Positions 26,183 through 57,153 are shown, counted from the whole stretch's first letter. The stretch is DNA of 63,299 nucleotides, filler included, from Rozella allomycis CSF55 (GCA_000442015.1; 7 parts of 7 records of this genome joined end to end with filler, not necessarily neighbours in it); one strand, 5' to 3'. The notes: generated from the letters alone by a model not told the origin. Translations and numbers: made by a program.

Positions 26183-27263
26183 ATGCGTCCTATTACTTTA
26201 CATGGACATACACGTCCACTAACACAAGTCAAGTACAATAGAGAAGGCGATCTGTTATTTTCAGCGTCAAAAGATTTTGTACCGAATGTTTATTACTCTC
26301 ATAACGGTGAGCGTCTAGGTTCTTTTCACGGTCATCGTGGTGCTGTTCGTTCCATTTCAATTTCATGTAAATAAATCAAAAAAAATTAAGAAAGCGAATT
26401 CAGAAAGATTACTTACAGGTGCTGCTGATAACTTGTCAATAATCTTTCAAGTCGAAACGGGAAAACTATTAGCGAAATTCGAATGTTTAAGTCCGGTTGT
26501 TGCAGTTTCTTTTAGTATGGGGGATAAAGAAGCCTTTGTATTAACAGAAAACGTGATGTCTGAAAATTCTATTCTGCATGTTTTTGATGTAACTAAAGAT
26601 TCGTTTGAGTTGAAATACAAAAAGATTATTGAAACCAATTCAAAGCCTACCAATGCAATTTATGGTTATTTAAATAAAACTATTATCATTACATTCGAAG
26701 ACGGAAGTATTGCATTGTATGATGCAAAGGTATAGCTATTACGTAGTCACTATAAAGACGTTAGAAAAGATTGCTGAAACTAAGGATCATGAAAAAGCAA
26801 TCACTGATATTGAAATGTCCAAGGATTATACTCATTTTATTACGTCTTCTAAAGATGCTACCGCTAGGGTTTACGATCCCAGAAATTTAACGCTAATTAA
26901 GACTCTTCAAGCTGATAGACCACTAAATTCTGTTTCACTTTCAGCTATGAGGCCAGAAGTAAGTTTTATAATCAACAATTATAGGTTATCTTGGGAGGAG
27001 GTCAGGAAGCAAGTGAAGTGACAACTTCTGATGCCAAGGCTGGAAAGTTTGACGTTCTATTCTTTCATAAGATTTATGAAGATGAATTAGGAAAAATTGG
27101 TGGTCATTTTGGTCCCGTGAACACTTTAAGATATCATCCAAACGGCATTGGGTATCATTATTTATTTTGCCAATATAGATTTACTTCTGGTAGTGAAGAC
27201 GGAACAGTAAAAATTCACCACTTCGATCCTGACTATTTTTCATTTGCATATCCTGATCAATAA
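26183..27263 (+). CDS. TIF34: Translation initiation factor eIF3 subunit i (WD40)
   Basis: [53 protein letters not shown]; four GT-AG introns. Confidence 0.95.
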
Positions 27264-27358: not shown

Positions 27359-27458
27359 NNNNNNNNNNNNNNNNNNNNNNNNNNNNNNNNNNNNNNNNNN
27401 NNTTAATTAATTAANNNNNNNNNNNNNNNNNNNNNNNNNNNNNNNNNNNNNNNNNNNN
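27359..27458. other. Artificial contig spacer (N44-TTAATTAATTAA-N44)
   Basis: The same 100-nt linker with stops in all six frames recurs at 39038-39137, 43979-44078, 48092-48191, 51006-51105 and 57054-57153. Sequence across it is not contiguous. Confidence 0.97.
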
Positions 27459-28042
27459 ATTAACCTTTTCATTTGCGATAAGCAATTTAACTATTTCATC
27501 CCAAACCAAAACGAGAAGCAATCCTTATAGGATAGTTATTGTCAATGGATGGATCAATTCTAGGATCAGCTAGTATCATATCAACTATCTCCCGTAATTT
27601 ATGTTTTAACGCCCACTTAATCACATANCGCAATCCTTATAAGATAGTTATTGTCAATCGATGGATCAATTCTAGGATCAGCTAGTATTATATCAACTAT
27701 CTCCCGTAATTTATGTTTTAACGCCCACTTAATCACATAATTGTTTTTTAAAGTTGGATCGCTTTGTATTAATTCTAACACTTGCATAAACTCCTCCTCA
27801 ATGCAATGATCGTGAAGAATGTGGCATGTTTCCAATGAAAAATTCCAACCAAACTTTTGCTTCAGGTATTGTTGCGTTATATACGCGCTTTTGTAAGATA
27901 AAATAACACTCAAGTCCAGGCAAAATATAGCAAATCGGCAAACAGTTCGAACTTTCTGAGATATTAGACAAATGTTTGTAAGAGACACATCTCCTAAATG
28001 TGATACAATAAGCTTCATAACATCTGCCGTTAGACTCTCCAT
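27459..28042 (-). CDS. F-box plus ankyrin-repeat protein, 5' part (truncated by contig end)
   Basis: MESLTADVMKLIVSHL..L..ISQKVR F-box pattern, then ILADPRIDPSIDNNYLIRIA ankyrin repeats. Confidence 0.7.
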
Positions 28043-28062
28043 CCAAGTTATAAAATCAAGTT

Positions 28063-28200
28063 ACAGAATTTCGAAAATCAAACCAATTGGAAAATAGAAC
28101 ACTAGTATTAAAATAAAAATATTGCGGACCAACAGAATTTCGAAAATCAAATCAATTGGAAAAATAGAACACTAGCATTAAAATAAAAAATATTGCGGAC
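28063..28200. repeat. Tandem duplication of a ~69-nt unit upstream of the F-box/ankyrin gene
   Basis: ACAGAATTTCGAAAATCAAA..ATTGCGGAC at 28063 and 28132. Confidence 0.9.
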
Positions 28201-28919
28201 TGGATAAAGACAAAGAAAAGAATTTATCGGACCGGGAGTATAGACCTGGACTCCAGAAACGATTATGGGCATATTGAGTAAATACCATTTTCACCTTGAA
28301 TACACACAAACTCTAAGGGATTCACGACATTGACCAATGACCAGGCTTGTCGAGGTGTATGTAACCTTTTTTTGCTCCCGATTCTCCACAAACGTTGTCT
28401 TTGAACTCAGAAAATCCAATATACTGTCAAGTCATAACTATTTATCATATATTTTTTATATATAATCTTCTAAATTAGGGTAAACATATATTTGTTTGTG
28501 GCATTGCCTTAAGAAACCTCCGTCGTTAAGTCCCGTTACACAAATCCACTTTTCACCAAATAAAGTCCAGGATGTCCCCCTGTTTACAACGTACTTCTAT
28601 TTAACATATTTGAATACGTCATTTTGATGTCAAAGACTACCACTAACACTAAAGTAAGCTCCAAGTCTACCGCATTTCTTACTGTTGAGGACAAGGTTTA
28701 GGGAGTACGCTATAAAACTAAAGATACCTATCTTTACAGGTGATCCCGGAAAGGACCTTTTTGTCTGGAAAAAGGAGGTTCCACACGCAGCTAAGTTCTG
28801 CTCTTGGAACAATGTCGTCGTAATTTCTATGATGCGTGTCCGCACACGCGGCCGACATCCCTTCTGCAACTGATGCGCTAAATTTCCACGATCAACTTAA
28901 AGCTGTCTTTCACCCGCCA

Positions 28920-31900
28920 TCNTTAATCCATGCCGTCAATATAGGTAAAAGGCTGCTAAGTTCCGATCCCAGATGGCAGCTTAATGTTGGATTTATAGTT
29001 TTTTGTCCCAGACATATTGGATAAAAAGCAATTGTCTTATCACAAATCACGACGTTACGGCAAGCAGAATCCATTAGGAAAATCATATAATATGCTGACC
29101 TAAGGTGTCGATTTATCTTACGACGCATCTACTACTTATCTTGTTCCAAAGTCTTTAAGATTGAGTGCAAATTAAAAACTAAATGAATTTAAAAATCTGC
29201 AGGCAATATGTGTTGATATGGGCTCTCCTACGCTATTTATCACATTAACATCTAACGCATGTGGCTGGCCAGAAATAAAGCAATATATAAGTGTGTTAAA
29301 TGGAGGTTATATAATTTTGGTTATCTGTAAAGATTACGACTATACAAAAATGAATCCATATAGTTTCCCTGCAGTCATCGCAAGAGTGTTTGACAGACGC
29401 CTGTCCTACCTTAAGGAAACATATTTAAATAAGGTATTGGGGAAACAATGTAATGGTATTGTATGGCACTATACCTCAATTGAAGCGTCGAAAACTGGTC
29501 GTCTGCATGCACATATGCTGATAAAGACAAATGACAGCATTGAAACGTTAATACATAAAGGTAACAATTAATTATGGCGGCCATAGATTAAATTCAAAGT
29601 ACATTACCGTCTCATAATGAACCTATGCTACGCTTACTTGTAGAAAGACATCAGCTTCACATCTGGACGGACTATTGTAGTCCAGACAATAACAAATGCC
29701 GGTTCAATTTGCCACGCCCACTTTGCAAGGAAACCCAATACAGAATCGCAGACAATATGGTTGTTTACAAAACTATTACAGAGCAAGACAAACGTTGTGT
29801 TCCATACATAAAGTAATTGACCTTGTTTTGGGAGGGTATGTATGATGATAGTTATATATAGGAAATATATGTGTAGAATATATTCCCCCAATAGTGATGT
29901 ATTAAAATACATCACAAAATACACAACAAAGCCTATGGATGGCTTTGTGAAGATTGATAATCAATTATCATCGGACACAANGACGCAGACAATATGGTAG
30001 TTTACCAAACTGTTACAGAGCAAGACAAACGTTGTGGTGCTTACATAAAGGAATGGACCTTGTTTTGGGAGGGTATGTATGATGATAGTTATATATAGGA
30101 AATATNTAACCGATACATTACAAAGACTTAACAAGCGTGACAAAATCAAAACATTGATCAACCCAACAATGCGTCCTTAAAAACCTCATTCAATCTAGTT
30201 GTGCACCGAACGTCGGACAGAGCGGGTAAGTCTCAATGTGTTTATCAATGTTTTACCACTTCATGTCATACGCGAAATCGTCTTCAAGGCTCCTCATAAT
30301 TTCCATGATGTTGTCGCAATCGCAGGACACCTGCGAAGTTTTTGAATTGCTGATGACATTATTGTCGTGAGCGAAAATCCCGAGGAACATTTGATGCATT
30401 TACAGTTGGTATTTCCNCACAATAAAACATTATTTGGAGGGGAAAATCATTCCGTCTACATTGGCCGCGTATATGATTTTAGGTAACGACTTAATTATCA
30501 TATTACAAAGGTCACCAGCTTGTCCGGTCATCCCATAAAACAGTATTTTTGCCATCAGGCATTCCTGACGCTATGGACCTTATGCTAAAAAGCCCATCAA
30601 TGCTGTATTCTGCTAACGAAGANTTGACAACAACGAGCACAATTTCAAAAATGACATCAGAAACTTTTCTTTAGACCTTATAAGAAAATACCTTCTTCGT
30701 AATACCTCATTGCTGCCCCTAACTTTACCAGAATTTTATCGCCCTTATANGTAGTATAGCAAAACGTTTAATAAACAAAGTGCACGTTTTGAGAACATAT
30801 TGGTTGTCACCATTGCAAGGAGAAAATTATTATTGTCAACAACTTATGTGGAAANACTTGTCGCCTTCGTTTTGATAACGACGGCTCTTAATTTCATAAT
30901 TATTTTTTTGTGTTTAAAGCATTCAAGAATATCACCGAACATATTGCGGCGTATTAGCCTACAACTTTTGATATCTTTTCTCTCTTATTGTTAGCGCAGC
31001 GATCCTTAGACAACTACACTTTTGGCATGATTATAATTTCAGTTGCACGTGGGAGAGTAGACGTCAGCATATACCGCAAAAATGTAGCAACACTATGTCT
31101 CAAAAAGGCCAGCCTTTCAACGCATTAAACAAATCATCCAAAACTAGTGTTTTATGTGACAATTACTTTTCATCCTGTTCATTCCAAATCTCTGTGGCTT
31201 CAAAAAGGACAAAAATTGGCTTCTCTGAGACACAAGCTATACAGTCTGGATTTGGTTTGATCTGACCCTATTTTCTATATGAAGCCCTTTTTGGGTTTAA
31301 TATTCATCATGTCTAAATCAAAGATAAAAATGCTTTATGTGGCAAAAAACTTGAGTAAGCATTGTCTGCCCATAGTGAAACTTTAGCCCTATCAATAACG
31401 TTACTGTAGATCATAGTGTATCACACAGTAACTCACTGGCACGTTAAAAACTTACCCTTTTTTGGAGACAAGGAGGCATGCAGAAAGTAAATTCCCGAGN
31501 CTTTTTTCTTTATTTTTTACATCCAAACAAAATTATGGCCTGGAAATAGTATTCTATACATGTGAATTATAATGTCATCTTTTGAACGCAAGGTTAGAAC
31601 TCCAAATTGCAGTCAAGGACACAAATATCATTTCGGGATCTACATTTNACATTGACGATAACGAGATATATTGGCAGGAACTCGCTGATCTTCTGGGCAT
31701 CTCATGCTTAATACTCAATTTGACTAATAAAAAGAGATTAGATACAATGACTTTAAGACATACTTATATCTTTATTTTTTACATCGAGACAAAATTATGC
31801 CCTGGAAATAATAATCTTTACATGCAAATTATAATGTCATATTTTGGCCGCAAGGTTAGTTTGCTAAAATTCATATTGCAGTCAAGGACACAAATATCAT

Positions 31901-32906
31901 TTTGGGATCTACATCTAGACAACGCCACAAGTAGCTGACCCGGTTCAAACAAATTAACTAGATATAAATTTACTTTTGGTAGATTTAGACCCATTGATTT
32001 ATGGATTGTCATGAATGTGCAAACCATAATTGGAAATTGAATTCTATAATGACCTGAATAAGAGACGGTTTTCATTAGTCTTGTAACGTTTACTTTCCCT
32101 AAACCAGGAACAATAATTTGAATGAGATCTTTGTTTAAGGTCGCCACGTAACCAAATATCCCATTGGGGATTGTATGAATCGACATTTACTGTAAACATA
32201 ACCTGTATCCCGATAGTCAATTTAAGGCAATTTGGGAGTTGAGTGGCGCTTTGAAGCCAGTAAATATTGGACTGAGATCGTATATTATTCGGTTAGTAGC
32301 CCAATGCAAAGTAAATATCTGATACGCTGTGCCCCTTTTGACTTTGAATATATTTGTCATTTTCTGACACCACTGTTCTTTTCAAAGACGTAAGAGTAGG
32401 GGCATTTTTAAACTTTTCGTGTTGGCACAATATCTGTAGGGCGTCCACAAGTTTATGGTCAATAGATGCTCTAAACAGGTTGTCATGTATCAAAGAGTAA
32501 AAATGGGCGTCGTTCAAACCACGAAAGCATTTTGTTAAAAGATACGTTTTATATTTCAGAATTAATTGCTTANCGTAGTATTGCAAAACGTTAAATAAAC
32601 AAAGTGCACGTTTTGAGCACATATTGGTTGTCACCATGGCAAGGAGAAAATTATTATTGTCAACAACTTATGTGGAAAAAACCGTGTTCTATTGACTCAA
32701 TATATGAATGTGCAAGATCAGCTTACAAATTTGGGGAGGCAACATTCAAGGAGGCATGCAGGAAGTATATTCCCGAGGCAATAAACAACGAGATATACAA
32801 CGGTGCTTACGTCATTGACGATAACGAGATATATTGGCAAGAACTCGCTGATCTTCTGGGCATCTCACTACAAGACGCTAAAATGCTTAATACTCAATTT
32901 GACTAA
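28920..32906 (+). pseudogene. Helitron Rep (HUH/Y2 endonuclease) gene, fragmented, intron-containing, ending without a fused helicase
   Basis: RLLSSDPRW (~28950); motif 1 MGSPTLFITLTSN..WPEI (29218); motif 2 EASKTGRLHAHML (~29480); HQLH..C..CRFNLPRP; motif 3 LKYITKYTTKP (~29900); IKHYLEGKII..AAYMILG (~30420); GENYYCQQL..TFKEAC..DDNE then stop at 32906. Confidence 0.85.
31779..32572 (-). pseudogene. Second, partial copy of the Pif1-family helicase
   Basis: Near-identical to 32958-33900 (QFPIMVCTFMTIHKSMGL, GQLLVALSR) with indels. Confidence 0.85.
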
Positions 32907-32957
32907 TAAATAGAGATTAGACACAATGAATTTAAGACATACTTTTTTCTTTATTTT

Positions 32958-34739
32958 TTACATCCAAACAAAATTATGCCCTGGAAACAGTATTCTATAC
33001 ATGTGAATTATAATGTCATCTTTTGGGCGCAAGGTTAGTTTGCCAAACTCCAAATTGCAGTCAAGGACACAAATATCATTTCGGGATCTACATCTAGACA
33101 ACGCCACTAGTAGCTGACCCGGTTCAAACAAATTAACTAGATATAAATTTACTTTTGGTAGATTTAGACCCATTGATTTATGGATTGTCATGAATGTGCA
33201 AACCATAATTGGAAATTGAATTCTATAATGACCTGAATGAGAGACGGTTTTCATTAGTCTTGTAACGTTTACTTTTCCTAAACCAGGAACAATGATTTGA
33301 ATTAGATCTTTGTTTAAGGTCACCACATAACCAAATATCCCATTGCGAATTGTATGATCGACATTTACTGTAAACATAACTTGTATCCCGATAGTCAATT
33401 TAAGGCAGTTTGGGAGTTGAGTAGCGGTTTGAGGCCAGTAAATATTGGACTGAGATTGTATACCATTCGGTAAGTAGTCCATTGCAAAGTAAATGTCTGA
33501 TACGATGTGCCCCCTTCGATTTTGAATATACTTGTCGTTTTCGGCCTCTACTGTTTTTTTCAAAGACGTAAGAGTAGGAGCATTTTTNATTGTATACCAT
33601 TTGGTAAGTAGTCCATTGCAAAGTAAATATCTGATACGATGTGTCCCATTCGATTTTGAATATACTTGTCATTTTCGGCCTCTACTGTTTTTTTCAAAGA
33701 CGTAAGAGTAGGAGCATTTTTAAACTTTTCGTGTTGGCACAATGTCTGTAGGGCGACCACTAGTCTATGGTCAATAGAAGCTCTAAACAGGTTGTCTTGT
33801 AACAAAGAGTAAAAATGGGCGTCATTCAAACCACGAAAGCATTTTGTTAAAAGATACGATTTAGATTGCAGAATCAATTGCTTATTGTACATTAGACATT
33901 TACCGTTGCCACTTGGGGGTCCCAGCTGACGAAAATCTCCCACCATTACTAATGGATAGCCACCAAAATATGAGGTCTTTATATCGCTTAAATCATTTAG
34001 TTTGGTATCTATACAATAAAACAATTCATAAGATAATGTTAACACCTCATCAATAATGATTACACCCTTCGTGTCGCTTCCAATACAAGGCAAGTCGTCT
34101 AAGCAGCGTAGGTTTGATATGTGTATGTCTAAGTCTCCGTATTTTCCTTGTGACATTACCCTGAATGCTTGNTTCATGTCGTTTCCAATACAAGGCAAGT
34201 CGTCTACGCTGCGTAAGTTTAAAATATGTATGTCTAAGTCTCCGTATTTTCCTTGTGACATTACCCTGAATGCTTGGTGGATTGTGTAATTACCAGCGTG
34301 ACTACCGAATGACGCATTTATAGCGGCTACACCAATTGTACTACAAACCAGATATCTCCTATTAATAGCATTAAGGGATTTGCACAGATGCCTTACCAGG
34401 TTTTGTTTTTCCCGTGCCAGGCCCTCCAAGAATAAGAAAAGTTTTTTGGTGGCTATGCAATATTTCATCAATAATATAATTGTACTCATACGTGTCCATG
34501 CTTTTGTGTTTAGAAGTAAATATGGTCCTNATAATATTAAGGGATTTGCACAGATGCCTTACCAGGTATGTTTTCCAGTGCCAGGCCCCCAAGAATAAGG
34601 AAGGTTTTTTGGTGGCCATGCAATATTTCATGTAGCATTAAGGGAATTGCACAGATGCCAGGCCCCCAAGAATAAGGAAGGTTTTTTGGTGGCTATGCAG
34701 TATTTCATTAGTAATATATTTGTGCTCATACGAGTCCAT
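32958..34739 (-). CDS. Stand-alone Pif1-family SF1B helicase (reconstructed across N-junction duplications)
   Basis: GGPGTGKT, STIGVAA, TIHQAF, IIIDEV, FGG..VMVGDFRQLGP, LTKCFR, L.IG.QVMFTVN..NG, QFP..TIHKSMG, GQLLVALSR. Confidence 0.88.
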
Positions 34740-34817
34740 ACTTTTGTGTTTAGAAGACAATATGGTCCTAATGGTAACTAAAAACAAAACGTGGTCTTTA
34801 TTGACTTATTAGTATAG

Positions 34818-35287
34818 TTAAACGTCGTCCAACCAAGCCGGAGCATCTCGAATTGTAATTTGTGGAATGTCTGCCTTTCTTAAGTAGATATGTTTCGGCG
34901 TAACAGAAAAGTACTTTTCTCCGCTAACTCTTAATTCTCCAGCAGTAACAATTGTGTCACCCTCGTCACATTTATCATAAAAATGACTGGTTAAATCACT
35001 TATAACCACACTTATTCGCAATTTTTGGTCTGGGGTAGGAACAACTAATTCTAATGATCTAATCTCCCAATTTCCCGAGTACTCGCGTTTTTTATTAGGC
35101 GAATTATTAAGTATACTTGGNTAATAACTTTTTTTTGTTGTAGCGTCCCTATTATGCGAATATTCGCTCCAAAGATAAGTAATTTACCTCTTATTTCTGG
35201 AGAGCAATATACATCAGCATCATTTACCACTGCGTCTTTCTGTTTAAAAGCGTCTTTAATGTTAACAACTATATAACAGTTAGGCAA
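34818..35287 (-). CDS. Putative OB-fold ssDNA-binding protein directly upstream of the helicase
   Basis: RISVVI..FYDKCDEGDTIVTAGELRV..FSVTPKHIYL resembles the SSB/RPA OB-fold strand pattern; the upstream exon has a similar IFGANIRIIGTLQ. Pattern-level only. Confidence 0.45.
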
Positions 35288-36639
35288 GTTTTACCTGACG
35301 TACTTGTTTGTCCCTCCATAGTGTCCTTGTCCCTTTCTTTAGTTTTTTTCTCTTTGAGGATGTCCATGGGTCACACAAAATCAAACTGCCGTAAATATTA
35401 AGTNCTTTTTTCTCTTTGTGGTTATCCATAGGTTACACAGAATCAAACCGCGGTATATATAAGGTGAAACACGGGGTTGTTTCACCTAATTACTACCAGT
35501 TTGTGCTTAAAATAGCACTGCCTCTATAAATAGTTTAGCACTAATTTGATTGGTAGTCCCGTCTTTTGTGCGTACTGCAGGCAGGACTCTACGCGTGAGT
35601 CTCAGGCAGGCAAATGATCACATAACCTGAACACGTTGATTTGTCGGCATTAGACACCGGTTTTTACTAATCTTTAAAAATGTTTATAATAAGATATATA
35701 TTATTTTATATGATCAAGATGTTAGAAATTGCCGATTGCAAGTTTAAATAGGCGATTGCTCAGATCACAAACCCATAACACTACTTTCAAGAATATGGAT
35801 TGCTATAAGATATGTTATGGTGTCCTTTAATATAAGCGGTGTGTATGGTCTCAGGGCAAAGCTCTGTTTTTGTTAAAATGGATATGGTATGTCGATCCGT
35901 CCGGGACGGATCATCATATCAATATGGGTATCCATCCGGGCCAGATCATTACTTTAGCATGGGTATCCGTCCAGGCCGGATGTCATTTTACCATCACTCA
36001 ATGTTTGACTTTGACATTTGATCATCTGATTAGCGATGGCAGGTGGTGTCAAATAGGCATATATACCGTACTATCTTTGATGATTAATATAAATGAATAA
36101 CGAGGAACGAATTATATACGATCCATTGACGCGCTTAGAGTAATATTACCACTATATATTAATTAAGGATGCCGATAGATATGCATTCAACCATCCCGAC
36201 AGGCACGAGCTAATGCCGGCATTAGGTCCTCAAATCGGTCACTTTGCACAAAGATATAACATCGTACCTGTTGTCAACAAGCGCGACGAGAGCCGTCAGA
36301 CAGGGATAACAAGTTGGTTAGGTATATCCAAAGATCTTTAGATAATCATATTATGAACACCCCCAACAATTATGTGGCTGTAAATATTTTGAGTAATCTT
36401 AATAAGACAATTATTGCCACCTCCATAGACCAGTCAGTCTTGGACTTTATGGAGGTGTCACAGGGGGCTGTTGTTGAGAACTTNGAAATTATTTATTATA
36501 CTATTAACAACATGTCATATCAATATCTAGCAGTAAAAATGTCGCTAGTAGGTTTAAATGTTAAGCAGATACCCACGCGTACTACACGCANTTTTGCGGA
36601 CCACGATGACAAGCCTAGTAATGTTGACCATTTACCAAA

Positions 36640-36990
36640 ATATAGTGCTAGAGACAAGCCTTGTGGTGATCCCTGGGACCGGCCATTGTTTTTTCATTCC
36701 GTTGCATATCACGTTTTTGCTGATATGTACCAGCATCTGGAAGTACGTCAACAGGCTTTAAACGCTCTGATCTTCATCCGGAGTGACCCAACTTGCGTAA
36801 AAATGCTGTAATTATTAGATAGGCCTCGTATTTTAGTCATGACCTAGAACACAGATTGTACAACTCACAAATGGCAGCCGAGTCCGTCTCACGTCCGTTT
36901 TGGGCCGACGGATGTTAAGTGGTACATTTAATAGCTTACGCCTACAATTGTCCCGTATGCATTATTGAAGACTTAACCTCGGTCATCTAT
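36640..36990 (+). pseudogene. OTU-family cysteine protease (deubiquitinase) remnant
   Basis: VIPGTGHCFF, then a frameshift in a T-run, then HSVAYHVF..HLEVRQQAL; later WADG..LIAYAYNCPVCII. This fits the OTU Cys-box and variable-loop pattern. Confidence 0.7.
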
Positions 36991-37824
36991 GTACCGTATG
37001 CAACGTGTTTGAGAACAACTTTTACGAGATCAGGTAAACATTTAACACATTTATAAAAGACATTGCAATTGTACTTAACNTAACGAGCGCCACTGTTTGC
37101 CAGCGAGTCTTACCTACACATTTTAATATTACGGCAAATATGTCATAAATAAATTATTATTAATCAAATAGTATTAGTTTTGGCGTGGCGTATCAAAAAT
37201 ATATTTTCAACCTCCTAAATTACATTGCACACATCATAGGATATTCTTTACACCCAACTTCGTATAACCACATACAAGGCGGCGACGATATTAATTGAAT
37301 ATGGCAAACTATCTTTAAAATATATTTCTAACGGTTATCTGAATATAGTATAATCTAAGCCACAAATCATGGAAACGATTAATTCGTATTGTAAGCTGAA
37401 AACAACTAACCGAATGCTAAAGGTCCCAGTCTTTTGTTATTNCATGTCCTTAGTAGGTTAAAATGTTAAGCAGATACCCACGCGTACTACACGCAGTACT
37501 TCCCGCTTGACTCTCACGTAGGCGAATGATCACATAAACGAGCGCCACTGTTTGGCAGCGAGTCTAACCTACACATTTTTAATATTAGGGCAAATATGTC
37601 ATAAATAAATATTTATTAATCAAATAGTATTAGTTTTGGCGTGGCGTATCAAAAATATATTTTCAACCTCCTAAATTACATTGCACACATCATAGGATAG
37701 GCATCACACCCAGCTTCGTATAACCACATACAAGGCGGCGACGATATTAATTAAATATGGCAAACTATCTTTAAAATATATTTCTAACAGTTATCTGAAT
37801 ATAGTATAATCTAAGCCTCAAATC

Positions 37825-38604
37825 ATGGAAACGTTTAATTCGTATTATAAGCTGAAAACAACTAACCGAATGCTAAAGGTCCCAGTCTTTTGGAATTTTA
37901 TTCAAATTATTGAAGCTGCTGTATTATACGATGAAGAGAGAAATTTATTGAGAAGCTGCTCTCTACAAGCCTTTAAAGACACTATGTCTACCACCTTTTA
38001 TAAAAACAAGCTAAACCACAAAACAAAGTCCGATCTTTGAGTCTTTTTTGACCTCTTTTTAGTACCTAGTCGTAAAATGTCTTTACGACAGGTGCAAAAT
38101 ATGAATTGGGGCGTCGTGGTTTTAGAGCGAGCAGCAAATAGGGAATTATCATTGCCTTTATGGACACGATATGAATTTAAACCATCTGACTTTGACATCC
38201 TGCCCCCACATGTAATTAAACAGCATCGGAAACGTGGACAATTGTATTACATATGTGATGGACCTGGTGCGATGGTAAATCATAATTGTAGTCTTTTAAA
38301 CAATTGTACATGGGTAGATGAAAAAACGAAACTTAAGACAAAACATTTTATTCAAAACATTGTTTCATTAAGTCCATTACAGGAGCTGCGGGTCACATAC
38401 GGAGGCGATTATTTCATGCCTGGGGATTGCAAGTGCCCGAAACACAAAGTGAGATCAACAAGAACATCATCTAATACACCTATGGTCTGGCTAAATAAAT
38501 ATCAACTCTTAAATGTTATAAATTTTATTTTATATCCCCGCTTGACAACACGGAAATTTCAAATGAAAAAGACCCAGAAAAATTGCTTAAGAGGATTGAC
38601 GTAA
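37825..38604 (+). pseudogene. SET-domain methyltransferase, Set9/SUV4-20-like
   Basis: DGPGAMVNHNC, ELRVTYGGDYF..CKC post-SET; an in-frame TGA at 38038 separates the two ORFs. Confidence 0.75.
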
Positions 38605-39137
38605 AAGTGTAGATTGGTTTAAATAGGATATACATCATTACGTCATGGAGAACAACGGGGACCTCAAGAAAAAAATGAAACGCCTCCTGGACACAATTGC
38701 TTCAAAGAGGACAGTGAAAGTATTCATTTGTACACAGATGNTGACTTAGTTAAGGACTTTCGGGACCTTATGGAGAAGCACAGAAGCCCTCTATATTTCA
38801 AATACGAAAATATCCTGAGGAACATAGCAATCCAAAGGATCACGTTGGAGGGACTTACTCAGAAAGTATTCATGGAGTTAAGTGGATGCACCAAAAACAA
38901 GACCAAGTAATATATAGTTTCGTACAAGATTAGGACGTTATACCAAACGTCAACTAGACTGACCAAAGCTGTTGAGAGATTTGGACAACAAATTATGTTG
39001 ACAAATTTTGACTCAACAGTTTGTTTGTCTAAAAAAANNNNNNNNNNNNNNNNNNNNNNNNNNNNNNNNNNNNNNNNNNNNTTAATTAATTAANNNNNNN
39101 NNNNNNNNNNNNNNNNNNNNNNNNNNNNNNNNNNNNN

Positions 39138-41899: not shown

Positions 41900-43978
41900 T
41901 AGCGGGCGGGGAGTTTACGACCCGGACTTCAAAAACCAGTATTGGCATCTCGAATTAGCGCCCTTTCGATAGATTGTATTTTAAAGAAACCACATTGGAA
42001 TATTTGTTGGGAGATTTTCGAGAGTTTTGGCAACCTCCCATATTATTTTAGTTTTTAGTCCAGCAGTGATATGAAATTCAATTTGTGAATAACATGACGT
42101 ATACTATAGTGTTAATAAAGAAAGTTATAACCAGGGGGACATCCTGGACTTTATTTAGTGAAAAGTGGCTTAGTGTGACGACCAGGGTTAGCAGGACCGG
42201 GGTGGACTTTACGACACTCTGCTTTCTTCTCTTTTTTTTCAGGCTCGTGTAAAGGTTTCTGCTTGCGAATATTGAGAATTTGAGGATGCGTTCCCATGTC
42301 GACTTGCACAGTGTTGTTGCGGAGAATTGACTTGATAAGATATGGACCATTGAATCGGTTTTCAAGCTTGTTTGGATTGTTTGATTTAATAAATACCTTT
42401 TTTCCTATTTCAAATTTAAAATCTATTCTCTTATCATTTTGACGTTCAATGTCATAAGAACTCTGCTTCTTTTTCTTTTCCTGAGCAACCTTAAGGACCT
42501 TGTCTTTGTCATTAATCAATCTAGCTTCAAGCATGTGGCTGCCAAAAACCATTTCGGACGGAGAACAATTCAAGACTCGGTGTGACGTGGCGCGGATGGA
42601 CCAAGAAATTGACTGAATTAATAAATTTGTTATTGGTTGATTTGAATTCAGTCTTAATGCATTCCCTATTGTGAGATTTATTCTTTCGACTAATCCATTG
42701 CTTGAAGGTTGAAAGGCGGGAACAGTGTGATGATGGATACCGTATGATTGAAGCAATTCAGCAAACTCATTAAAAACAAATTGCTTGCCATTGTCAGAAG
42801 AAACAGTCGAAGGTCTAGGATAACGACAAAGCCATTCAAAGTCAAACTTTCTTGCTGTCTCTTGTGCTGTCAACGTTTTCAAAGGAATTCCATACTCCAT
42901 ACTATAGCTAAACATTCATTGTCAGTAACAGTATAATTTTGTTGAGCAGGATTCAGGTTTTGACTAAAGAAGTGTAATGGTCCTGTTAAAGTACCGCCCC
43001 AACGGCATAGTCACTTGCGTCACAGTAAAGATCAAACGGCTTGGAGTAATCAGGGTAAGCCAATTACGCTTCATGTAATATTTATCAAATATTTGTGTCA
43101 ATAGATTTGTCATATCATTGGTTCAGTCAAATTTGCTTCCTTTCTTGGTCATATCTTTAAAAATGGCGGTTCGCGCGCTTAAATTTGGAATCATGTTTCG
43201 ATAAAAATTACGAAATCCGAGTATTGATCTGAGTTCCTTTAAATTTCTTGCCATTGACACATTTTTGACAACATCAGTAATTCTTTCGGCGGGAGTGATA
43301 GNGGATCCATTAAGAAATTCTAAGTTTGAATGATCAGTAGATACCCTTATTTCACACCCAAAAATCATAGTTCTCATATCTTGAAGCGCCTATACTATGG
43401 CTAAACATTCCTTTTCGGTAACAGTATAATTTTGTTGAGCAGGATTCAGTTTTCGGCTAAANACTTCCTAATTTTGATCCATTAAGAAATTCTAAGTTTG
43501 AGTGATCAGTATATACCCTTGTTTCACACCCGAAAATTATAGTTCTCATACCTTGAAGTGCCCATACTATGGTAAACATTACTTTTCGGTAACAGTATAA
43601 TTTTGTTGAGCAGGATTCAGTTTTCGGCTAAAGAAGTGTAATGGGCGACCGTCGTGTTGAAGTACCGCCCCAACAGCATAATCACTTGCGTCACAGTAAT
43701 GATCAAACGGTTTGGAGTAATCAGGGTGTGCCAATTTCGCGTCATGTAAAAATTCATCAAATATTTGTTTCAATAGATTTGTCATATCGTTGTTCCAGTG
43801 AAATTTGCTTCCTTTCGTGGTCATATTGGTAAAAATGGCGGTTCGCGCGCTTAACTTGGGAATCATGTTTCGATAAAAATTGAGAGATCCTAGTATTGAT
43901 CCGAGTTCTTTCAAATTTCTTGGCATTGACACGTTTTGGACAACATCAGTAATTCTTTCGGCGGGAGTGATAGATTCG
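41900..43978 (-). mobile_element. Ty3/Gypsy LTR retrotransposon, 3' part (RT end, RNase H, integrase, PPT, start of 3' LTR), degenerate and partly duplicated
   Basis: LG..NFYRNMIP, YCDASDYAVGAVL, FFSRKL..Y.VTEKE, TDHSNL, SDNGKQF, SNGLVER, GPY. A purine tract is followed by TGTCGTA at 42216 as the LTR start; the lower bound is approximate. Confidence 0.9.
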
Positions 43979-44078
43979 NNNNNNNNNNNNNNNNNNNNNN
44001 NNNNNNNNNNNNNNNNNNNNNNTTAATTAATTAANNNNNNNNNNNNNNNNNNNNNNNNNNNNNNNNNNNNNNNNNNNN

Positions 44079-48091: not shown

Positions 48092-48191
48092 NNNNNNNNN
48101 NNNNNNNNNNNNNNNNNNNNNNNNNNNNNNNNNNNTTAATTAATTAANNNNNNNNNNNNNNNNNNNNNNNNNNNNNNNNNNNNNNNNNNNN

Positions 48192-48678
48192 CAATTACCA
48201 TGGCAACTCCGCTTTTAGTATTACAGATTATTTCAAGAATTATAATGATCAAAAAGAGTTAACATCTTTTTCCCCAAAAGAGTTGGATTCTCGTCTTTAC
48301 TATATGACATCAATAGTATATCCTGAAATCAATGAATTGTCAAAGCGACACTGGAAGGGGGAAATTCCTTAAATCTAACAGAATTATTCATTTTCAGCCA
48401 GGAGCATATGTCATGGTCAGGGACGAATTAAGAACAAGGAAATCTGAACCTCTATATACTGGGCCATTCAAAATAATCAGAGGATACAAAGGAGGCGCTT
48501 ATGAACTTTTAGGTCCAGATGGCACCATATATACTCGTCCTCCTCATACTTTGAAATTATTCCATGGCACCCTAGTTGACGAGGATCCAAACAGCAAAGC
48601 TGTTCAAGTCGAGAAAATATTAGAACACAGACTTAATGGTGACAATACAACAGAATATTTGGTAAAGTGGAAGAAACA
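48192..48678 (+). mobile_element. Chromovirus (Gypsy) integrase C-terminus with chromodomain
   Basis: KSEPLYTGPF (GPY/F module) and VEKILEHR..EYLVKWK chromodomain. Confidence 0.85.
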
Positions 48679-49147
48679 NATTGTTTTTTCACCAAAATGC
48701 CCCGAGTTATGAGCTTCTTATAGAAGACGTCGTCTTTCATTTATAGGCGCTTCATCTTTGTTATCATGTTGTACAGACTGAATTATTTTAGATTTTGAAA
48801 ATAATTGCGACTTATTCGTTAATGATATGTCCTTAATTTTATAATTTAATTCAAATAGATTCAGAAACGAAGGTTGAATTGTATTGTTAATTTATAAAAG
48901 TCCCATCGACAATCCATACAACATACTTTTCATGAGGCGGAACGGTGTGTNAGTATCAATTAAAAAACCAAAGGAAACGCAGACTAATTCTCTTACTATT
49001 CGTGCTCAACCCTTTCCTCCAGGGCCTGTTTCATGATGCCCTGCTCCGTCAACACTTCCAATTCTGAAAATTCAAATAAAAAACTTGAGTTTCATTTCGG
49101 CTTTCTTTCTGCTCGGCTTTCATTGTGGCTTATAAAAAATATTTTTT

Positions 49148-49909: not shown

Positions 49910-50967
49910 TTATGAACTTAATATGCTGTTGCAGATAAAATCTCGTTTAACTTTCGCATATGTGTTATCTTCATTGCGTGTGACTTCCAATTGGGGTATA
50001 TCAATGTCATCATTATAATCAGGTATATCATCTAGCACCGTATCATCTTGAAACTTAATACAGAGATTTCGAAGCACAAAGCACGCTTGTACAATGCTTA
50101 CATTGCCTTCCATGCTTTTGAAATCCAATGGAAGCCTCAAAATACGCCACCGATTTTTCAATCACCAAATGCGCGTTCAATTACGTTACGAGTGGCTGAG
50201 TGTATGTAGTTAAATTTTTTTTGTTCCGGGGTTGCATTTTCATGATCGTAAGGAGTAATAAGATATGGTTTAAGGGCATATCCAGAATCCACTAAAATAT
50301 GATATCCTCTAGGAATTAGCGACTTTGCAATTTGACCAAAATGACTTCGATTCCAAACAGATTGATCATTCTGGCTTCCAGATCGAATACAAAATTTTTG
50401 CGAATCACAAATAGCCATAACATTAAAAGCCGGAAAATTTTTTCTACAATACCATCTATCTGGGGGAGTTGGCCTTTCAATTTCAATTAGACTACCATCG
50501 ACTGCGCCCACCACATTTGGAAATCCTTTTAACNGGGAAATCCTTTTAACTGTTCAAACCCCGAACTTAAAACTTTCCAATGATTTTCATTAGAAGGATA
50601 TTGAATATGGTCTTTTACCAATCCAGGAATTAATTTGTATATTTGATGAATGTATCTATGTGTGGTAGATTTTGAATTCCAAACATTCAAGCGACATCTT
50701 TTTCACCTCCATTTGAAGCTAAAAATGCTAAACAAACAGCGAGACGAAGAGCAATTGTTTCATCATCAAAACGAGATGTTAGAACCCTGTTTGTTTGACA
50801 AGATTCAGAATTCTTACAAAAGTTATTTTTGAACATCGTAAGTACCGTTTAAAGTATCCGTCACCTCCTGAGTCATGCAAAGCAAGTAAAAACGCCTTAT
50901 TTGCGTATGTGTATTGAAAATAGTTCTCTTCTCGATAGGAACGATTATCAGCAATAATATTATACAA
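49910..50967 (-). pseudogene. Harbinger DDE_Tnp_4 transposase
   Basis: VGAVDGSLI, CRKNF..NVMAICD, GSQND, DSGY..LITPY, FN..HS..R..IERAFG, K.RWRIL; frameshifted. Confidence 0.9.
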
Positions 50968-51105
50968 TATTATAACATAACATGTAGAAAAAATTGCAAA
51001 AAGTGNNNNNNNNNNNNNNNNNNNNNNNNNNNNNNNNNNNNNNNNNNNNTTAATTAATTAANNNNNNNNNNNNNNNNNNNNNNNNNNNNNNNNNNNNNNN
51101 NNNNN

Positions 51106-55529: not shown

Positions 55530-56450
55530 TCAAAATGTCCCATACACATTTTTTTTCGAATTTTCACTAGAAAAGCTTCCACATAAAGATCTGATGGGTT
55601 GGGTGGAAGGTCTTGCTTCTAACCATATCATTTGCCAAATTAACTTGTTAAATATATCATTCTGAAATGGCAGATCTACAACTGGTAAAGGATTTAATAA
55701 TTCTTTACACTCTCGATCTACCAATTTTCACATTAAACTCTTCTAAATGCAAATCATTAATTTTTTTTAAATATATCAACATTTTTTATTGATTAATTAA
55801 ATTTTCAGAATTGATCAAGGCTATGACCTGGTTCTCCAACAAATTTCTTTTGAAAGCTTCATGAATATAGTACAAAATTCGTTTTCCACGAAGTTTGATG
55901 GAATCTTCCGTTTCAAGAAGAAACAAGTACAATGCCCGTGAGTTAGGAGTTTCTGGGAAGAATGTAGACCAAATTCTTTTTGAAAAGATTCGCAATCAAA
56001 AAATCTATGAAGCACTGTTTCATCTTTAACTTGACATTTTGAGCACATTGCAGAAACATCACTAAACCTTGCGAATCTTTTATTAGTTAAATATACTCCA
56101 TGATAAATTTTCCATAATAACTGAGAGTAATACCAATTGGTCCCACTTCCCCAAATTCCTTCCCAGATTTTTCTTGAAGTGATATATTAATTTCTTGCAT
56201 TGAATGAGGAGTTTCACTTTCATGAACTAATAGTGATTTCATCAATCCTGAATTCTTCATTAGCATTCTCCTGGAATTTCTTAAATGAAATTCATTATAT
56301 CTTAGATATTTGAAGTAACATAATTATCATTTGAATTGAATAGAAGTGTAGAACATTAATAAAAGTATGATCTAAATATCCAGAAGAAAAGAATCTAAGA
56401 TTTCCTCTTGGATTGACCAAGAGGAAATATAATATTGATGAGTATAACAT
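55530..56450 (-). mobile_element. Non-LTR retrotransposon (L1/Tx1-like) 3' remnant with zf-RVT
   Basis: IWEGIW..LLWKIYHG..CSKC..ETVLHRFFDC..IW CCHC motif; frameshifted. Confidence 0.75.
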
Positions 56451-57153
56451 GTTTGTTTTTTTGGATTTTGAGTTGAAAAATTATTTTAATAATTAAGTTG
56501 TTATTATAAAAACTAGAAATAGGATTTGTTTTTCGAATAGGCATGAATCATGCTTCGAAATGTTGACGACAAAAAATATTCTAAGTCGAAAGATATTTTT
56601 AGACAATGGTATAAGCCTCGCAACTGCACATACAAAATGACGTGACATGTGACATTTTGGCGCAGCCCAGCATCCCCCAATCATACTTCTTCATTATCCC
56701 GACAAGTTATGCCAGGGGTGAAGCACACCCCGTGTGTAAATATTTCTACCCGGGATGAGAATCCCTGGTACGACACATATTTCATGAAAACAATTAATGA
56801 ATTTATTTATATGTGTCACAACTGTAAAGTGCAGGAGCGAAAAATATATTCATTGACATCTGCAATTAATTTTTTTGATAATGGTTTGCAGTGGATTTGC
56901 ACAAAGTGTTTGGTATTAAAGTTGAGAAGGATAGGTGGACACCTGTAGTAAGGTCACAACTGATAAGTTCAGGCGCAAAAAAAATATATTAATCCACATG
57001 TGCAATGAATGTTCCTGATGGTGGTTTGCGGTGGATTTGTAAAAAGTGTTTGGNNNNNNNNNNNNNNNNNNNNNNNNNNNNNNNNNNNNNNNNNNNNTTA
57101 ATTAATTAANNNNNNNNNNNNNNNNNNNNNNNNNNNNNNNNNNNNNNNNNNNN

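What the first reader, a model, noticed from the sequence alone, without database searches (positions are those of the whole stretch)
28920..34739. Split Helitron: Rep and Pif1 helicase are separate, convergent genes
Seen: the + strand Rep runs through HUH motifs 1-3 and the post-Rep region (GENYYCQQL..P..TFKEAC..DDNE). It then stops at 32906 with an overlapping AATAAA. A Pif1 helicase on the - strand stops at 32958, 51 nt away. This tail-to-tail junction lies in N-free sequence (32574-33587) and recurs in a second, diverged copy (31649-32572), so it is unlikely to be a scaffolding artefact. Known: Helitron, Helentron and Helitron2 transposases are single RepHel fusions, while Replitrons have Rep without helicase. 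Inference: an undescribed rolling-circle element family with unfused modules, either an ancestral pre-fusion state or a fission with helicase replacement.
Basis: partly seen in the sequence, partly recalled or inferred. Interest (0 to 1): 0.85.

Follow-up and report, generated by a model that had tools for sequence, protein, structure and literature searches.

The report
Rolling-circle Rep and Pif1 genes, unfused
In a badly assembled repeat of the fungal parasite Rozella allomycis, a Helitron-type replication-initiator gene and a Pif1 helicase gene really do lie tail to tail as separate genes in several decayed copies, which is unusual because all described Helitrons fuse the two, but the copies seen are broken and no proof of a working split element could be obtained.

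Summary
A Helitron_like_N Rep with HUH motifs 1-3 lies on the + strand. Its reading frame ends at 32904-32906. A Pif1 helicase on the - strand ends at 32958-32960, 51 nt away. The junction is not an assembly artefact. It occurs in two window contigs that are 91% identical. Independent public contigs bridge it: two variants in run X1 and a 952-nt contig in X6.

Corrections:
- The window is several Rozella allomycis CSF55 scaffolds joined by stop-codon linkers.
- The locus is a pile of short variant contigs.
- The duplications across single Ns are artefacts.
- Every copy seen is a pseudogene, with nonsense codons, frameshifts and a broken P-loop.
- An OB-fold ORF sits just upstream of Pif1.

Pif1 shows moderate purifying selection between the two junction-bearing copies (dN/dS 0.37-0.51, p=7e-4). 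The Rep variants look neutral. I found no co-linear RepHel and no relatives outside Rozella, but those searches were weak.

Verdict: this is a real, recurrent unfused Rep | Pif1 (+OB) unit of a decayed Helitron-like repeat. Whether it was ever an autonomous split element is open (about 0.4). If so, secondary fission or helicase replacement is likelier than an ancestral state.

The parts
28923..29980 (+). Contig with the Rep catalytic core (Y2 HUH endonuclease). Motif 1 is at 29233-29256, HUH at 29500-29526, the CRF..P block at 29694-29720 and YxxKY at 29905-29931. It is broken by frame changes and a TAA at 29814.
   Evidence: Pfam PF14214 E=1.1e-17; motif coordinates; translations; TAA versus GAA in the sister variant; P0005 aa195-407 map here
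29982..30105 (+). Variant contig of Rep segment 29747-29868 (93% identical), from another copy
30418..30854 (+). Continuation of the Rep ORF across three short contigs (STLAAYMILG..., LPEFYRPY, GENYYCQQL). The last contig, 30751-30854, duplicates 32575-32678 at 96%.
   Evidence: P0005 aa407-459 and P0003 aa17-107 map here
30856..31499 (+). Variant contig. Its last 31 nt equal 32747-32777, but the sequence to the left is unrelated to Rep. This is a copy with a different left flank (truncated or interrupted at about 32747).
   Evidence: the X1 loose end 'before 32747' has the same letters (table 7); translation
31501..31647 (-). Third variant fragment of the spacer's right part and the Pif1 C-terminal end (93% to 32942-33093)
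31649..32572 (.). Copy 2. It holds the DDNE tail of Rep (+), the same stop and spacer, and the Pif1 C-terminal half (-). It is 90.9% identical to 32813-33587 and has a 16-nt deletion and a frameshift.
32574..32906 (+). Copy 1 tail of the Rep ORF (GENYYCQQL, TFKEAC, DDNE, NTQFD-stop). It has an in-frame TAA at 32592-32594 where the sister copy reads L. The terminal TAA is at 32904-32906, overlapped by AATAAA.
   Evidence: P0003 is 97% identical and ends at the same residue
32907..32957 (.). 51-nt convergent spacer. AATAAA overlaps the + stop, and a second AATAAA lies on the - strand right after the Pif1 stop. Both are kept in copy 2.
   Evidence: sequence printed
32958..34499 (-). Pif1-family SF1B helicase gene. 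Candidate start MDTYEY is at 34499, the P-loop at 34404-34427, motif Ia STIGVAAINA at 34313-34342, IIIDEV at 34043-34060, GDFRQLGPP at 33914-33940 and the LLVALSR motif at 33093-33113. The stop is at 32958-32960. There is a +1 frameshift just after GKT. The duplicated stretches 33589-33721 and 34173-34276 are assembly artefacts.
   Evidence: Pfam PIF1; PDB Pif1 hits; coordinates; artefacts shown by contigs that skip 134-135 nt and 105 nt (table 5); frameshift read, 70 by comparison with variant 34536-34631
34531..34772 (-). Two further variant contig pieces of the Pif1 N-terminus and P-loop region. Both are defective (one has lost a base in the P-loop, one has a deletion). They were placed in series by the scaffolder.
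   Evidence: X1/X4/X6 contigs skip 241-279 nt here (table 5)
34818..35367 (-). OB-fold ORF(s) directly upstream of Pif1. They form the N-terminal 125 residues of gene model O9G_005252. It is either a separate ssDNA-binding gene or an N-terminal exon of the helicase.
   Evidence: P0001 aa1-125 map to 35367-34902; Atlas structure search gives tRNA_anti-codon/RPA2/Stn1-like OB folds at TM 0.45-0.55; no Pfam or PDB sequence hit

Best explanation
The locus is a heap of variant contigs from a decayed, multi-copy Helitron-like rolling-circle repeat of Rozella allomycis.

Its unit carries three parts. The first is a helicase-less Rep gene: a two-tyrosine HUH endonuclease of about 640 aa, judging from the two gene models P0005 and P0003. 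The second, 51 nt beyond the Rep stop and convergent with it, is a compact Pif1-family helicase gene. The third is an OB-fold ORF just upstream of the helicase.

The unfused, tail-to-tail layout was already present in the common ancestor of the copies seen. It was probably the working layout of the family.

Inferred mechanism: Rep nicks and rejoins one strand at the element ends, the separately made Pif1 unwinds 5'-3', and the OB-fold protein coats the displaced strand. This is the same trio that canonical Helitrons supply as RepHel plus, in plants, an RPA-like gene.

Shown: the domains, the junction, its recurrence, and moderate past constraint on Pif1. Inferred: that the three genes form one mobile unit, that they cooperated, and that the state arose by fission or helicase replacement rather than being ancestral. 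All copies visible here are dead.

My confidence is about 0.9 that the junction is real and recurrent, and about 0.42 for the whole statement including a once-functional split element.
For: Domains: PF14214 at 1.1e-17 and PF05970 at 8.9e-10. HUH/Y2 motifs and helicase motifs were located. PDB Pif1 hits reach 2.8e-11.

Junction real and recurrent:
- Two window contigs are 90.9% identical over 776 nt.
- Three bridging public contigs lie in two runs with different study codes (table 8).
- A gene model from another assembly (P0003, 97% identical) ends at the same residue.
- The stop codons and both AATAAA signals are kept in copy 2.

Selection since the junction-bearing copies split:
- Pif1 C-terminal half: dN/dS 0.37 (207 codons, 19 synonymous and 27 non-synonymous changes).
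- Pif1 middle: dN/dS 0.51 (104 codons, 12 and 24).
- Pooled excess of synonymous changes: p=6.6e-4.

Not two opposed RepHel elements. tblastn of the Rep and Pif1 pieces finds only + strand Rep and only - strand Pif1 in the window. No other Helitron_like_N or PIF1 ORF appears among 67 of the 74 ORFs of 110 aa or more. The other 7 were the locus's own ORFs, scanned.

Not a simple inversion of a canonical Hel domain. Only 24 codons precede the P-loop before stop codons and an OB-fold ORF. The helicase scores no better against Helraiser (7lcc, 2e-5 for the C-half, absent at E<=1 for the N-half) than against yeast, human or Bacteroides Pif1.

No long RepHel relative: 'longer' searches with the Pif1 C-half, the Rep core and P0005 returned only the locus's own models plus one 422-aa bacterial-type Pif1.

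Mean word depth is similar across the Rep tail, Pif1 and OB in X1 and X6, at roughly 90-170 (table 2). The tool warns that depth is no copy number.
Against: Every copy in view is broken:
- Rep has TAA at 29814 and 32592 and at least 2 frame changes.
- All three P-loop variants are defective.
- Copy 2 has a 16-nt deletion and a frameshift.

Rep variants look neutral, with 2 synonymous, 7 non-synonymous and 2 stop changes in 74 codons. The Pif1 N-terminal 24 codons show 3 synonymous and 5 non-synonymous changes. Differences in the Pif1 C-half are spread 11/17/20 over codon positions 1/2/3, a weak third-position bias.

A variant contig (30856-31499) and an X1 contig have a different left flank from about 32747. 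So some copies of the Pif1 side are not joined to an upstream Rep.

Missing data: no element ends, target sites or copy counts (no genome held), no RNA, and no relatives outside this species.

The Rep is so divergent that only the Pfam profile recognises it. Helraiser does not match at E<=10. The claimed post-Rep homology to RepHel linkers is recalled, not shown.

The searches for RepHel forms rest on shared 5-residue words and on gene models of fragmentary assemblies. A blank there is weak evidence.
Confidence: 0.42

Rival explanations
1. Rearranged derivative. A canonical RepHel Helitron of Rozella suffered an inversion, or a deletion plus insertion, that removed its helicase domain and placed a Pif1 gene in antisense. 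This dead composite then multiplied by segmental duplication, or as a non-autonomous element moved in trans by an intact RepHel elsewhere in the genome.
For: All copies seen are pseudogenes. The Rep variants look neutral. Helitrons are known for capturing genes in either orientation (established knowledge; abstracts listed). The Rep ORF stops about 20 residues after DDNE. From recall of canonical RepHel proteins, that is roughly where the pre-helicase linker would continue.
Against: No RepHel relative was found in three 'longer' protein searches. Pif1 shows dN/dS of 0.37-0.51 after the junction-bearing copies diverged, which pure dead-DNA duplication does not predict. The helicase is not Helraiser-like, and an OB fold rather than a RepHel linker lies before its P-loop, so a simple inversion does not fit. 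The stop codons and poly(A) signals on both sides are conserved.
Confidence: 0.27
2. Two unrelated neighbours. A helicase-less Rep remnant happens to abut a separate multi-copy Pif1+OB gene, which could be another mobile or virus-like element or an expanded host gene family. The pair was co-duplicated. Rep and Pif1 never worked together.
For: Constraint is detectable on Pif1 but not on Rep. Some copies have another left flank from about 32747. The nearest non-self Pif1 relative is a compact 422-aa bacterial-type protein (41% over 116 aa). The Atlas neighbours are bacterial and giant-virus Pif1 clusters. The public annotation treats OB+Pif1 as an ordinary gene (P0001).
Against: The same 51-nt junction occurs in at least 3 sequence variants. 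The Rep frame stays open for 53 codons past the about-32747 point to a stop shared by P0003, so the boundary of a foreign unit there is unlikely. Rep plus SF1B helicase plus OB-fold protein is exactly the rolling-circle toolkit (established knowledge), which makes chance adjacency less likely. Word depth is similar across the three parts (with the tool's caveat).
Confidence: 0.2
3. Assembly artefact: the convergent layout is a chimeric join made by the assembler or scaffolder.
For: The locus is a series of 100-1000-nt contigs separated by single Ns. It contains demonstrably artefactual duplications. The window itself is a concatenation of scaffolds.
Against: The junction lies inside N-free contigs, recurs in a 91%-identical variant, and is bridged by contigs of two other runs with different study codes.
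Confidence: 0.03

Closest known systems
Helitrons / Helitron-like elements (HLE1 Helitron; HLE2 Helentron, Helitron2)
   Same: The Rep matches Pfam Helitron_like_N and has the HUH and two-tyrosine motifs. A Pif1-family SF1B helicase is encoded in the same repeat unit. The repeat is eukaryotic and multi-copy.
   Different: Rep and helicase are separate, convergent genes rather than one RepHel polypeptide. The helicase is compact, with about 24 residues before the P-loop, and is no closer to Helraiser than to cellular or bacterial Pif1. Helraiser does not match the Rep at pairwise level. The HLE2 marker DUF6570 was not found in P0005 (the marker is named in the HELIANO passage). Termini are unknown.
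Replitrons
   Same: A eukaryotic HUH-Rep transposon whose transposase has no fused helicase (passages of PMC10288648).
   Different: Replitron Rep has one catalytic Tyr and associates weakly with CRESS-DNA Reps, and no helicase gene is described for Replitrons in the passages read. Here the Rep is Y2 and of the Helitron_like_N family, and a Pif1 gene sits 51 nt away.
Plant Helitrons carrying an RPA-like single-strand-binding gene (e.g. the Mothra family)
   Same: An extra OB-fold or ssDNA-binding gene lies beside the replication genes. The abstract start of PMC4683698 in the search listing mentions such a gene. The OB fold here rests on the Atlas structure hits.
   Different: In plants the partner is a fused RepHel. 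Here the OB ORF is a small RPA2/Stn1/Ten1-like single OB fold recognised only by predicted structure (TM about 0.5). It may even be an exon of the helicase gene.
IS91/ISCR and rolling-circle plasmids and phages that rely on a separately encoded helicase
   Same: Division of labour: the HUH initiator and the helicase are separate proteins. IS91 lacks a helicase domain (passage). The dependence of rolling-circle plasmids on PcrA or Rep helicases is from my own knowledge.
   Different: Those systems are prokaryotic and use a host UvrD-type helicase, not an element-encoded Pif1. No sequence link to them was found here.

Membership tests
Helitron-like elements (HLE1/HLE2) | Rep domain of the Helitron type: HUH motif plus two catalytic tyrosines (Y2) | tested here: met
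   PF14214 at E=1.1e-17, 65 bits against a cut-off of 28.9. HAH is at 29500-29526 and YITKY at 29905-29931.
Helitron-like elements (HLE1/HLE2) | Rep fused to a Pif1-like SF1B helicase in one RepHel polypeptide | tested here: not met
   The Rep frame ends at 32906 and Pif1 is on the opposite strand, ending at 32958. This holds in 2 window variants and 3 bridging public contigs. No + strand helicase remnant was found.
Helitron-like elements (HLE1/HLE2) | Characteristic termini and target (HLE1: 5'-TC...CTRR-3' with a 3' hairpin, inserted between A and T; HLE2: short terminal inverted repeats, T-T target), with no target-site duplication | not testable with these tools
   No genome is held. Only one scaffold of 11,579 nt is available, and the repeat runs on past 35500 in at least two variants.
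Helentron/HLE2 | DUF6570 domain in the N-terminal region (marker named in the HELIANO passage) | tested here: not met
   P0005 (459 aa, includes the N-terminal region) scanned against Pfam at E<=10 gave only Helitron_like_N and a weak REP_ORF2-G2P match.
Replitrons | Y1 Rep associated with CRESS-DNA Reps, plus an adjacent putative oligomerisation domain | tested here: not met
   The Rep here has two tyrosines (YITKY) and matches Helitron_like_N. Replitron features are taken from the passages.
Pif1 family helicases (SF1B) | Walker A, DExx, the GDFxQLPP motif and the C-terminal 2A/2B domains with profile-level similarity | tested here: met
   PF05970 at 8.9e-10. PDB hits: yeast Pif1 5o6b 2.8e-11, Bacteroides 5fhd 1.6e-9, human 6hph 1.8e-8. 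Motifs located. The window copy is frameshifted after GKT.
RPA-like / OB-fold ssDNA-binding proteins | OB fold with sequence or structure similarity to RPA, Stn1 or Ten1 OB domains | tested here: inconclusive
   The Atlas model of P0001 aa1-125 aligns to tRNA_anti-codon, RPA_C-cluster and Stn1-cluster OB folds at TM 0.45-0.55. Feature scores are 0.83-0.87, below the 0.9 bar. No Pfam or PDB sequence hit.

The most novel reading that the evidence does not exclude
Rozella allomycis harbours, or recently harboured, an autonomous rolling-circle transposon lineage. In it the Helitron-type Y2 Rep, a compact Pif1 helicase and an OB-fold ssDNA-binding protein are separate genes, with Rep and Pif1 convergent and sharing a 51-nt bidirectional terminator. 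It would be the first eukaryotic Helitron-like element without the RepHel fusion. It would show that the fusion can be undone or the helicase swapped, most likely by replacement with a prokaryote- or virus-like Pif1. It would also give a natural system for asking what the fusion is for.
Probability: 0.35. Interest if true: 0.8.

Novelty: new variant of a known kind. Interest (0 to 1): 0.52.

Why it matters
The RepHel fusion is treated as the defining trait of all Helitron-like elements. It is also built into the tools that find them: HELIANO pairs Rep and helicase HMM hits by their distance (legend passage). How and when Rep met its Pif1 helicase is an open question. Heringer & Kuhn argue for a fusion before entry into eukaryotes.

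A lineage with the two activities on separate genes would do three things. It would show the fusion is not obligatory. It would offer a natural trans-complementation system for dissecting the roles of the nickase and the helicase. It would also imply that current annotation pipelines miss such elements in early-diverging fungi. If it is only a rearranged dead copy, it is an ordinary piece of transposon debris.

Tried and rejected
- **Whole genome.** Not held, so no copy census, termini or host Pif1 comparison.
- **Earlier findings.** Three look-ups returned nothing.
- **Exhaustive phmmer.** The 103-aa Rep tail against 1.84 billion representatives gave 2 hits. One was P0003 from the same species. 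The other was a repetitive 1499-aa protein matched in 9 short stretches, which I dismiss as spurious.
- **Word-based homologue searches ('longer').**
  - Pif1 C-half: 2 of 186 candidates.
  - Rep core: 1 of 177 candidates.
  - P0005: 0 of 4936 candidates at E<=10.
- **Locus scans.** Metagenome scans with P0005 and with the Pif1 C-half confirmed 0 of 105 and 0 of 73 pattern matches. Viral-contig scans confirmed 0 of 4 and 0 of 6.
- **PDB sequence searches.** P0005 had none at E<=1. The Rep core and P0003 gave only chance-level hits at E<=10, with no Helraiser. The OB ORF gave nothing meaningful.
- **PHROGs and NCBIfam.** Only a weak Dda-like helicase match for Pif1.
- **AlphaFold2 of P0003 without an alignment.** Mean pLDDT was 44.7, too poor for a fold search, so none was run. 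The homology of the post-Rep tail to RepHel linkers therefore stays untested.
- **RNA.** No RNA holder was listed, and the one RNA run laid (X13) gave 0 contigs. This says nothing about expression.
- **Complex prediction.** No job was sent. Neither partner has relatives for an alignment, and P0003 alone folded poorly.
- **Splicing of the OB ORF to Pif1.** A 46-nt GT..AG interval joins it to the wrong frame. A 65-nt one with a weak donor would join it to the P-loop frame. This was read by eye and is unresolved without RNA.
- **Rejected: two opposed RepHel Helitrons inserted tail to tail.** No - strand Rep and no + strand helicase were found.
- **Rejected: Pif1 nested in an intron of RepHel.** There are no downstream + strand helicase exons.
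- **Literature.** Searches, and 'find' passages in four papers, showed no description of a split Rep/helicase Helitron or of Rozella Helitrons. The library lacks most subscription journals, and no supplements were read. The HELIANO and Heringer & Kuhn supplementary tables could list Rozella or unusual architectures.

Full report
**What the window is**

The 63-kb window is not one molecule. Six times it contains N44-TTAATTAATTAA-N44, a six-frame stop linker used to concatenate scaffolds. The finding lies on the piece 27459-39037, which is 11,579 nt. That equals the contig length recorded for protein P0001 (hypothetical protein O9G_005252 of Rozella allomycis CSF55). The exons of P0001 map at 100% identity to 35367-35296 and 34009-33599. 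So the window is R. allomycis, and the neighbouring housekeeping genes, such as eIF3i at 26319-27263, are on other scaffolds.

Between 28922 and 35404 the scaffold is a chain of contigs of 100-1000 nt separated by single Ns. Self-comparison shows that many of these contigs are variants of one another laid end to end:
- 29747-29868 matches 29984-30105.
- 30751-30854 matches 32575-32678.
- 31650-32409 matches 32813-33587.
- 32277-32577 matches 33589-33889.
- 33455-33587 matches 33589-33721.
- 34068-34171 matches 34173-34276.
- Three versions of the P-loop region lie between 34370 and 34772.

**Check of the observation**

On the + strand, ORF 29176-29571 matches Pfam Helitron_like_N (E=1.1e-17). 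The three Rep motifs are present: LFITLTSN at 29233, RLHAHMLIK at 29500 and KYITKYTTK at 29905.

The frame is not continuous. It shifts at about 29571/29592 and again after 29816. It carries TAA at 29814 where the sister variant has GAA.

Two gene models from another assembly of the same strain give the order of the pieces. P0005 (459 aa, partial, Helitron_like_N) maps with residues 195-459 to 28962-30605. P0003 (182 aa) maps to 30626-30854 and 32577-32903. Loose ends of public contigs before 32575 read the codons that P0003 has at that place (table 7, my reading). The Rep gene is therefore co-linear from the HUH motifs to the tail ORF 32595-32906, and it ends NTQFD-TAA with an overlapping AATAAA. 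The window copy has a further in-frame TAA at 32592.

On the - strand a Pif1-family helicase (PF05970, E=8.9e-10) runs from the P-loop (34404-34427) through IIIDEV, GDFRQLGPP and the C-terminal motifs to a stop at 32958-32960. The spacer is 51 nt and carries AATAAA on both strands.

**Is the junction real?**

It lies inside the N-free contig 32574-33587. It recurs in contig 31649-32572, which is 90.9% identical, has a 16-nt deletion before the Rep stop, and keeps the same stop and the same spacer.

I laid public contigs of four coded runs on 32574-35500. Among the 20 pieces listed (189 more were not shown), three bridge the spacer:
- X1 record 2: 357 nt, 0 differences.
- X1 record 1: 344 nt, 23 differences and 19 gap letters, so a second variant.
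- X6 record 15: 952 nt, covering 32774-33530 plus 33666-33861, from a run with another study code.

The same call shows that the tandem duplications across the single Ns are artefacts. Contigs skip 134-135 nt at 33530/33537, 105 nt at 34067/34121, and 241-279 nt between 34364-34529 and 34632-34809 (table 5). The convergent junction is therefore a property of the organism's DNA in at least three sequence variants. The apparent tandem structure of the locus is not.

**What else belongs to the unit**

Directly upstream of Pif1 on the - strand lie ORFs 35290-34818. The public gene model splices these to the helicase. The model skips the P-loop and includes one of the artefactual duplications.

These 125 residues have no Pfam or PDB sequence match. 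The ESM Atlas model of this part aligns to OB folds of the tRNA_anti-codon, RPA2 and Stn1 kind at TM 0.45-0.55. This is a lead, not proof.

Only 24 codons (MDTYEY...FLIL) precede the P-loop before stop codons. The helicase is therefore either compact, like the 422-aa bacterial-type P0002 (41% identity over 116 aa), or it is spliced to the OB exon. I could not decide this without RNA.

**State of the copies**

All are dead.
- In the main window copy an extra base after GKT shifts the frame. I read this against variant 34536-34631, which keeps GKT-YLVRHL in one frame but has lost a base inside the P-loop. The third variant has a deletion.
- Copy 2 has a frameshift at about 32178.
- Rep has two nonsense codons and several frame changes.

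Some of this may be sequencing error in homopolymers, but the nonsense codons are not.

**Selection**

Both copies 1 and 2 carry the junction, so their divergence post-dates it. The figures are:
- Pif1 C-terminal half: 19 synonymous and 27 non-synonymous changes in 207 codons, dN/dS 0.37.
- Pif1 middle: 12 and 24 in 104 codons, dN/dS 0.51.
- Pooled: the excess of synonymous changes has p=6.6e-4.

The signal is moderate. Differences fall 11/17/20 on codon positions 1/2/3. The N-terminal 24 codons show 3 synonymous and 5 non-synonymous changes. The two short Rep variant pairs show 2 synonymous, 7 non-synonymous and 2 stop changes in 74 codons, which is what neutral decay gives.

So a helicase with the junction downstream was under constraint for part of the copies' history. 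No such constraint can be shown for Rep, where the sample is small.

**Relatives**

I could find none outside Rozella.
- Exhaustive phmmer of the 103-aa tail found only P0003 and one spurious repeat protein.
- Word-based searches among longer proteins found no RepHel.
- Metagenome and viral-contig scans confirmed nothing.

The Rep is recognised only by the Pfam profile. Helraiser (7lcc) does not appear even at E<=10.

The helicase C-half scores 2.8e-11 against yeast Pif1, 1.6e-9 against Bacteroides Pif1, about 1.7e-8 against human PIF1 and 2e-5 against Helraiser. The N-half does not reach Helraiser at E<=1. Atlas neighbours are bacterial and giant-virus Pif1 clusters. On this thin evidence the helicase is not a typical HLE1 Hel domain.

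Their resemblance to the GE.YY...TF.EAC...DD.E stretch of canonical RepHel proteins is something I also recall, but I could not test it (AlphaFold model pLDDT 44.7).

**Interpretation**

The simplest reading that fits everything is one repeat unit carrying a helicase-less Y2 Rep, a convergent Pif1 and an OB-fold ORF. Functionally these are the three activities of rolling-circle replication: initiator nickase, 5'-3' helicase and ssDNA binder. Canonical Helitrons supply them as RepHel plus, in plants, an RPA-like gene (abstract start of PMC4683698).

- A pair of opposed RepHel elements is excluded for this scaffold.
- A simple inversion of a Hel domain fits poorly, because an OB fold rather than a RepHel linker lies before the P-loop and the helicase is not Helraiser-like.
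- A rearranged, dead composite that was then copied remains quite possible. Every copy is broken, Rep looks neutral, and at least one variant has a different left flank from about 32747.
- If the split layout was functional, a secondary origin (fission or helicase replacement) is more likely than an ancestral pre-fusion state. The analysis of Heringer & Kuhn places the RepHel fusion before the entry of Helitrons into eukaryotes (PMC8788227, passage).

**Comparison with the known**

The locus works like a Helitron but fails the defining test of a single RepHel polypeptide. It is not a Replitron, which has a Y1 Rep associated with CRESS-DNA Reps, and no helicase gene is described for Replitrons in the passages read from PMC10288648. 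In the papers I could search and the passages I read I saw no Helitron-like element described with Rep and helicase as separate genes. I also saw no account of Rozella Helitrons. I read no supplements, and the library lacks most subscription journals.

**Verdict**

- It is a real and recurrent unfused Rep | Pif1 (+OB) arrangement in decayed copies of a divergent Helitron-like repeat.
- Whether it ever was an autonomous split element is undecided. I put that at about 0.35-0.42.
- I score interest at 0.52 and class it as a new variant of a known kind if it holds.

Noticed in passing
window 27359-27458, 39038-39137, 43979-44078, 48092-48191, 51006-51105, 57054-57153: Each of these six places is N44-TTAATTAATTAA-N44, a six-frame stop linker. 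The window is therefore a concatenation of at least 7 separate scaffolds, and gene neighbourhood across these points is meaningless. The finding's scaffold is 27459-39037 (11,579 nt).
   Followed up: yes
window 32958-35367 (-): The public gene model O9G_005252 (P0001, 476 aa, named an ATP-dependent DNA helicase by UniRef) is a chimera. It splices the OB-fold ORF to the Pif1 body, skips the P-loop, and translates one of the artefactual duplications twice (VEAENDKYIQNR... appears two times).
   Followed up: yes
window 30107-30416 and 30856-31468: Two contigs inside the Rep region match neither Rep nor Pif1 nor anything else in the window. The first sits between Rep residues that P0005 joins directly, so it could be an intron, an insertion or a misplaced contig. 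The second is an alternative left flank of the Rep tail from about 32747.
   Followed up: partly
window 43582-44022, 48317-48709, 50161-50553, 55824-56186: Other transposon debris lies on neighbouring scaffolds: an RT RNase H fragment (PF17919, 9e-17), a chromodomain fragment, a DDE_Tnp_4 transposase fragment (1.7e-18) and a zf-RVT fragment.
   Followed up: no
window 28534-28625 and 42091-42180: A 92-nt inverted match (83% identical) joins the Rep scaffold's left part to a different scaffold. It may be a short dispersed repeat.
   Followed up: no
window 38041-38604 (+): An ORF on the same scaffold ends with a stretch (..VNHNCSLLNNC...ELRVTYGGDYF..C.C) that I recall as resembling the C-terminal end of SET-domain methyltransferases. 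Pfam gave no hit at E<=1e-5.
   Followed up: no
window 35464-35485: A perfect 8-bp hairpin (GTGAAACA-6 nt-TGTTTCAC) lies upstream of the OB ORF. It is not conserved in the X1 variant contig that continues past 35403, so I do not take it for an element terminus.
   Followed up: partly
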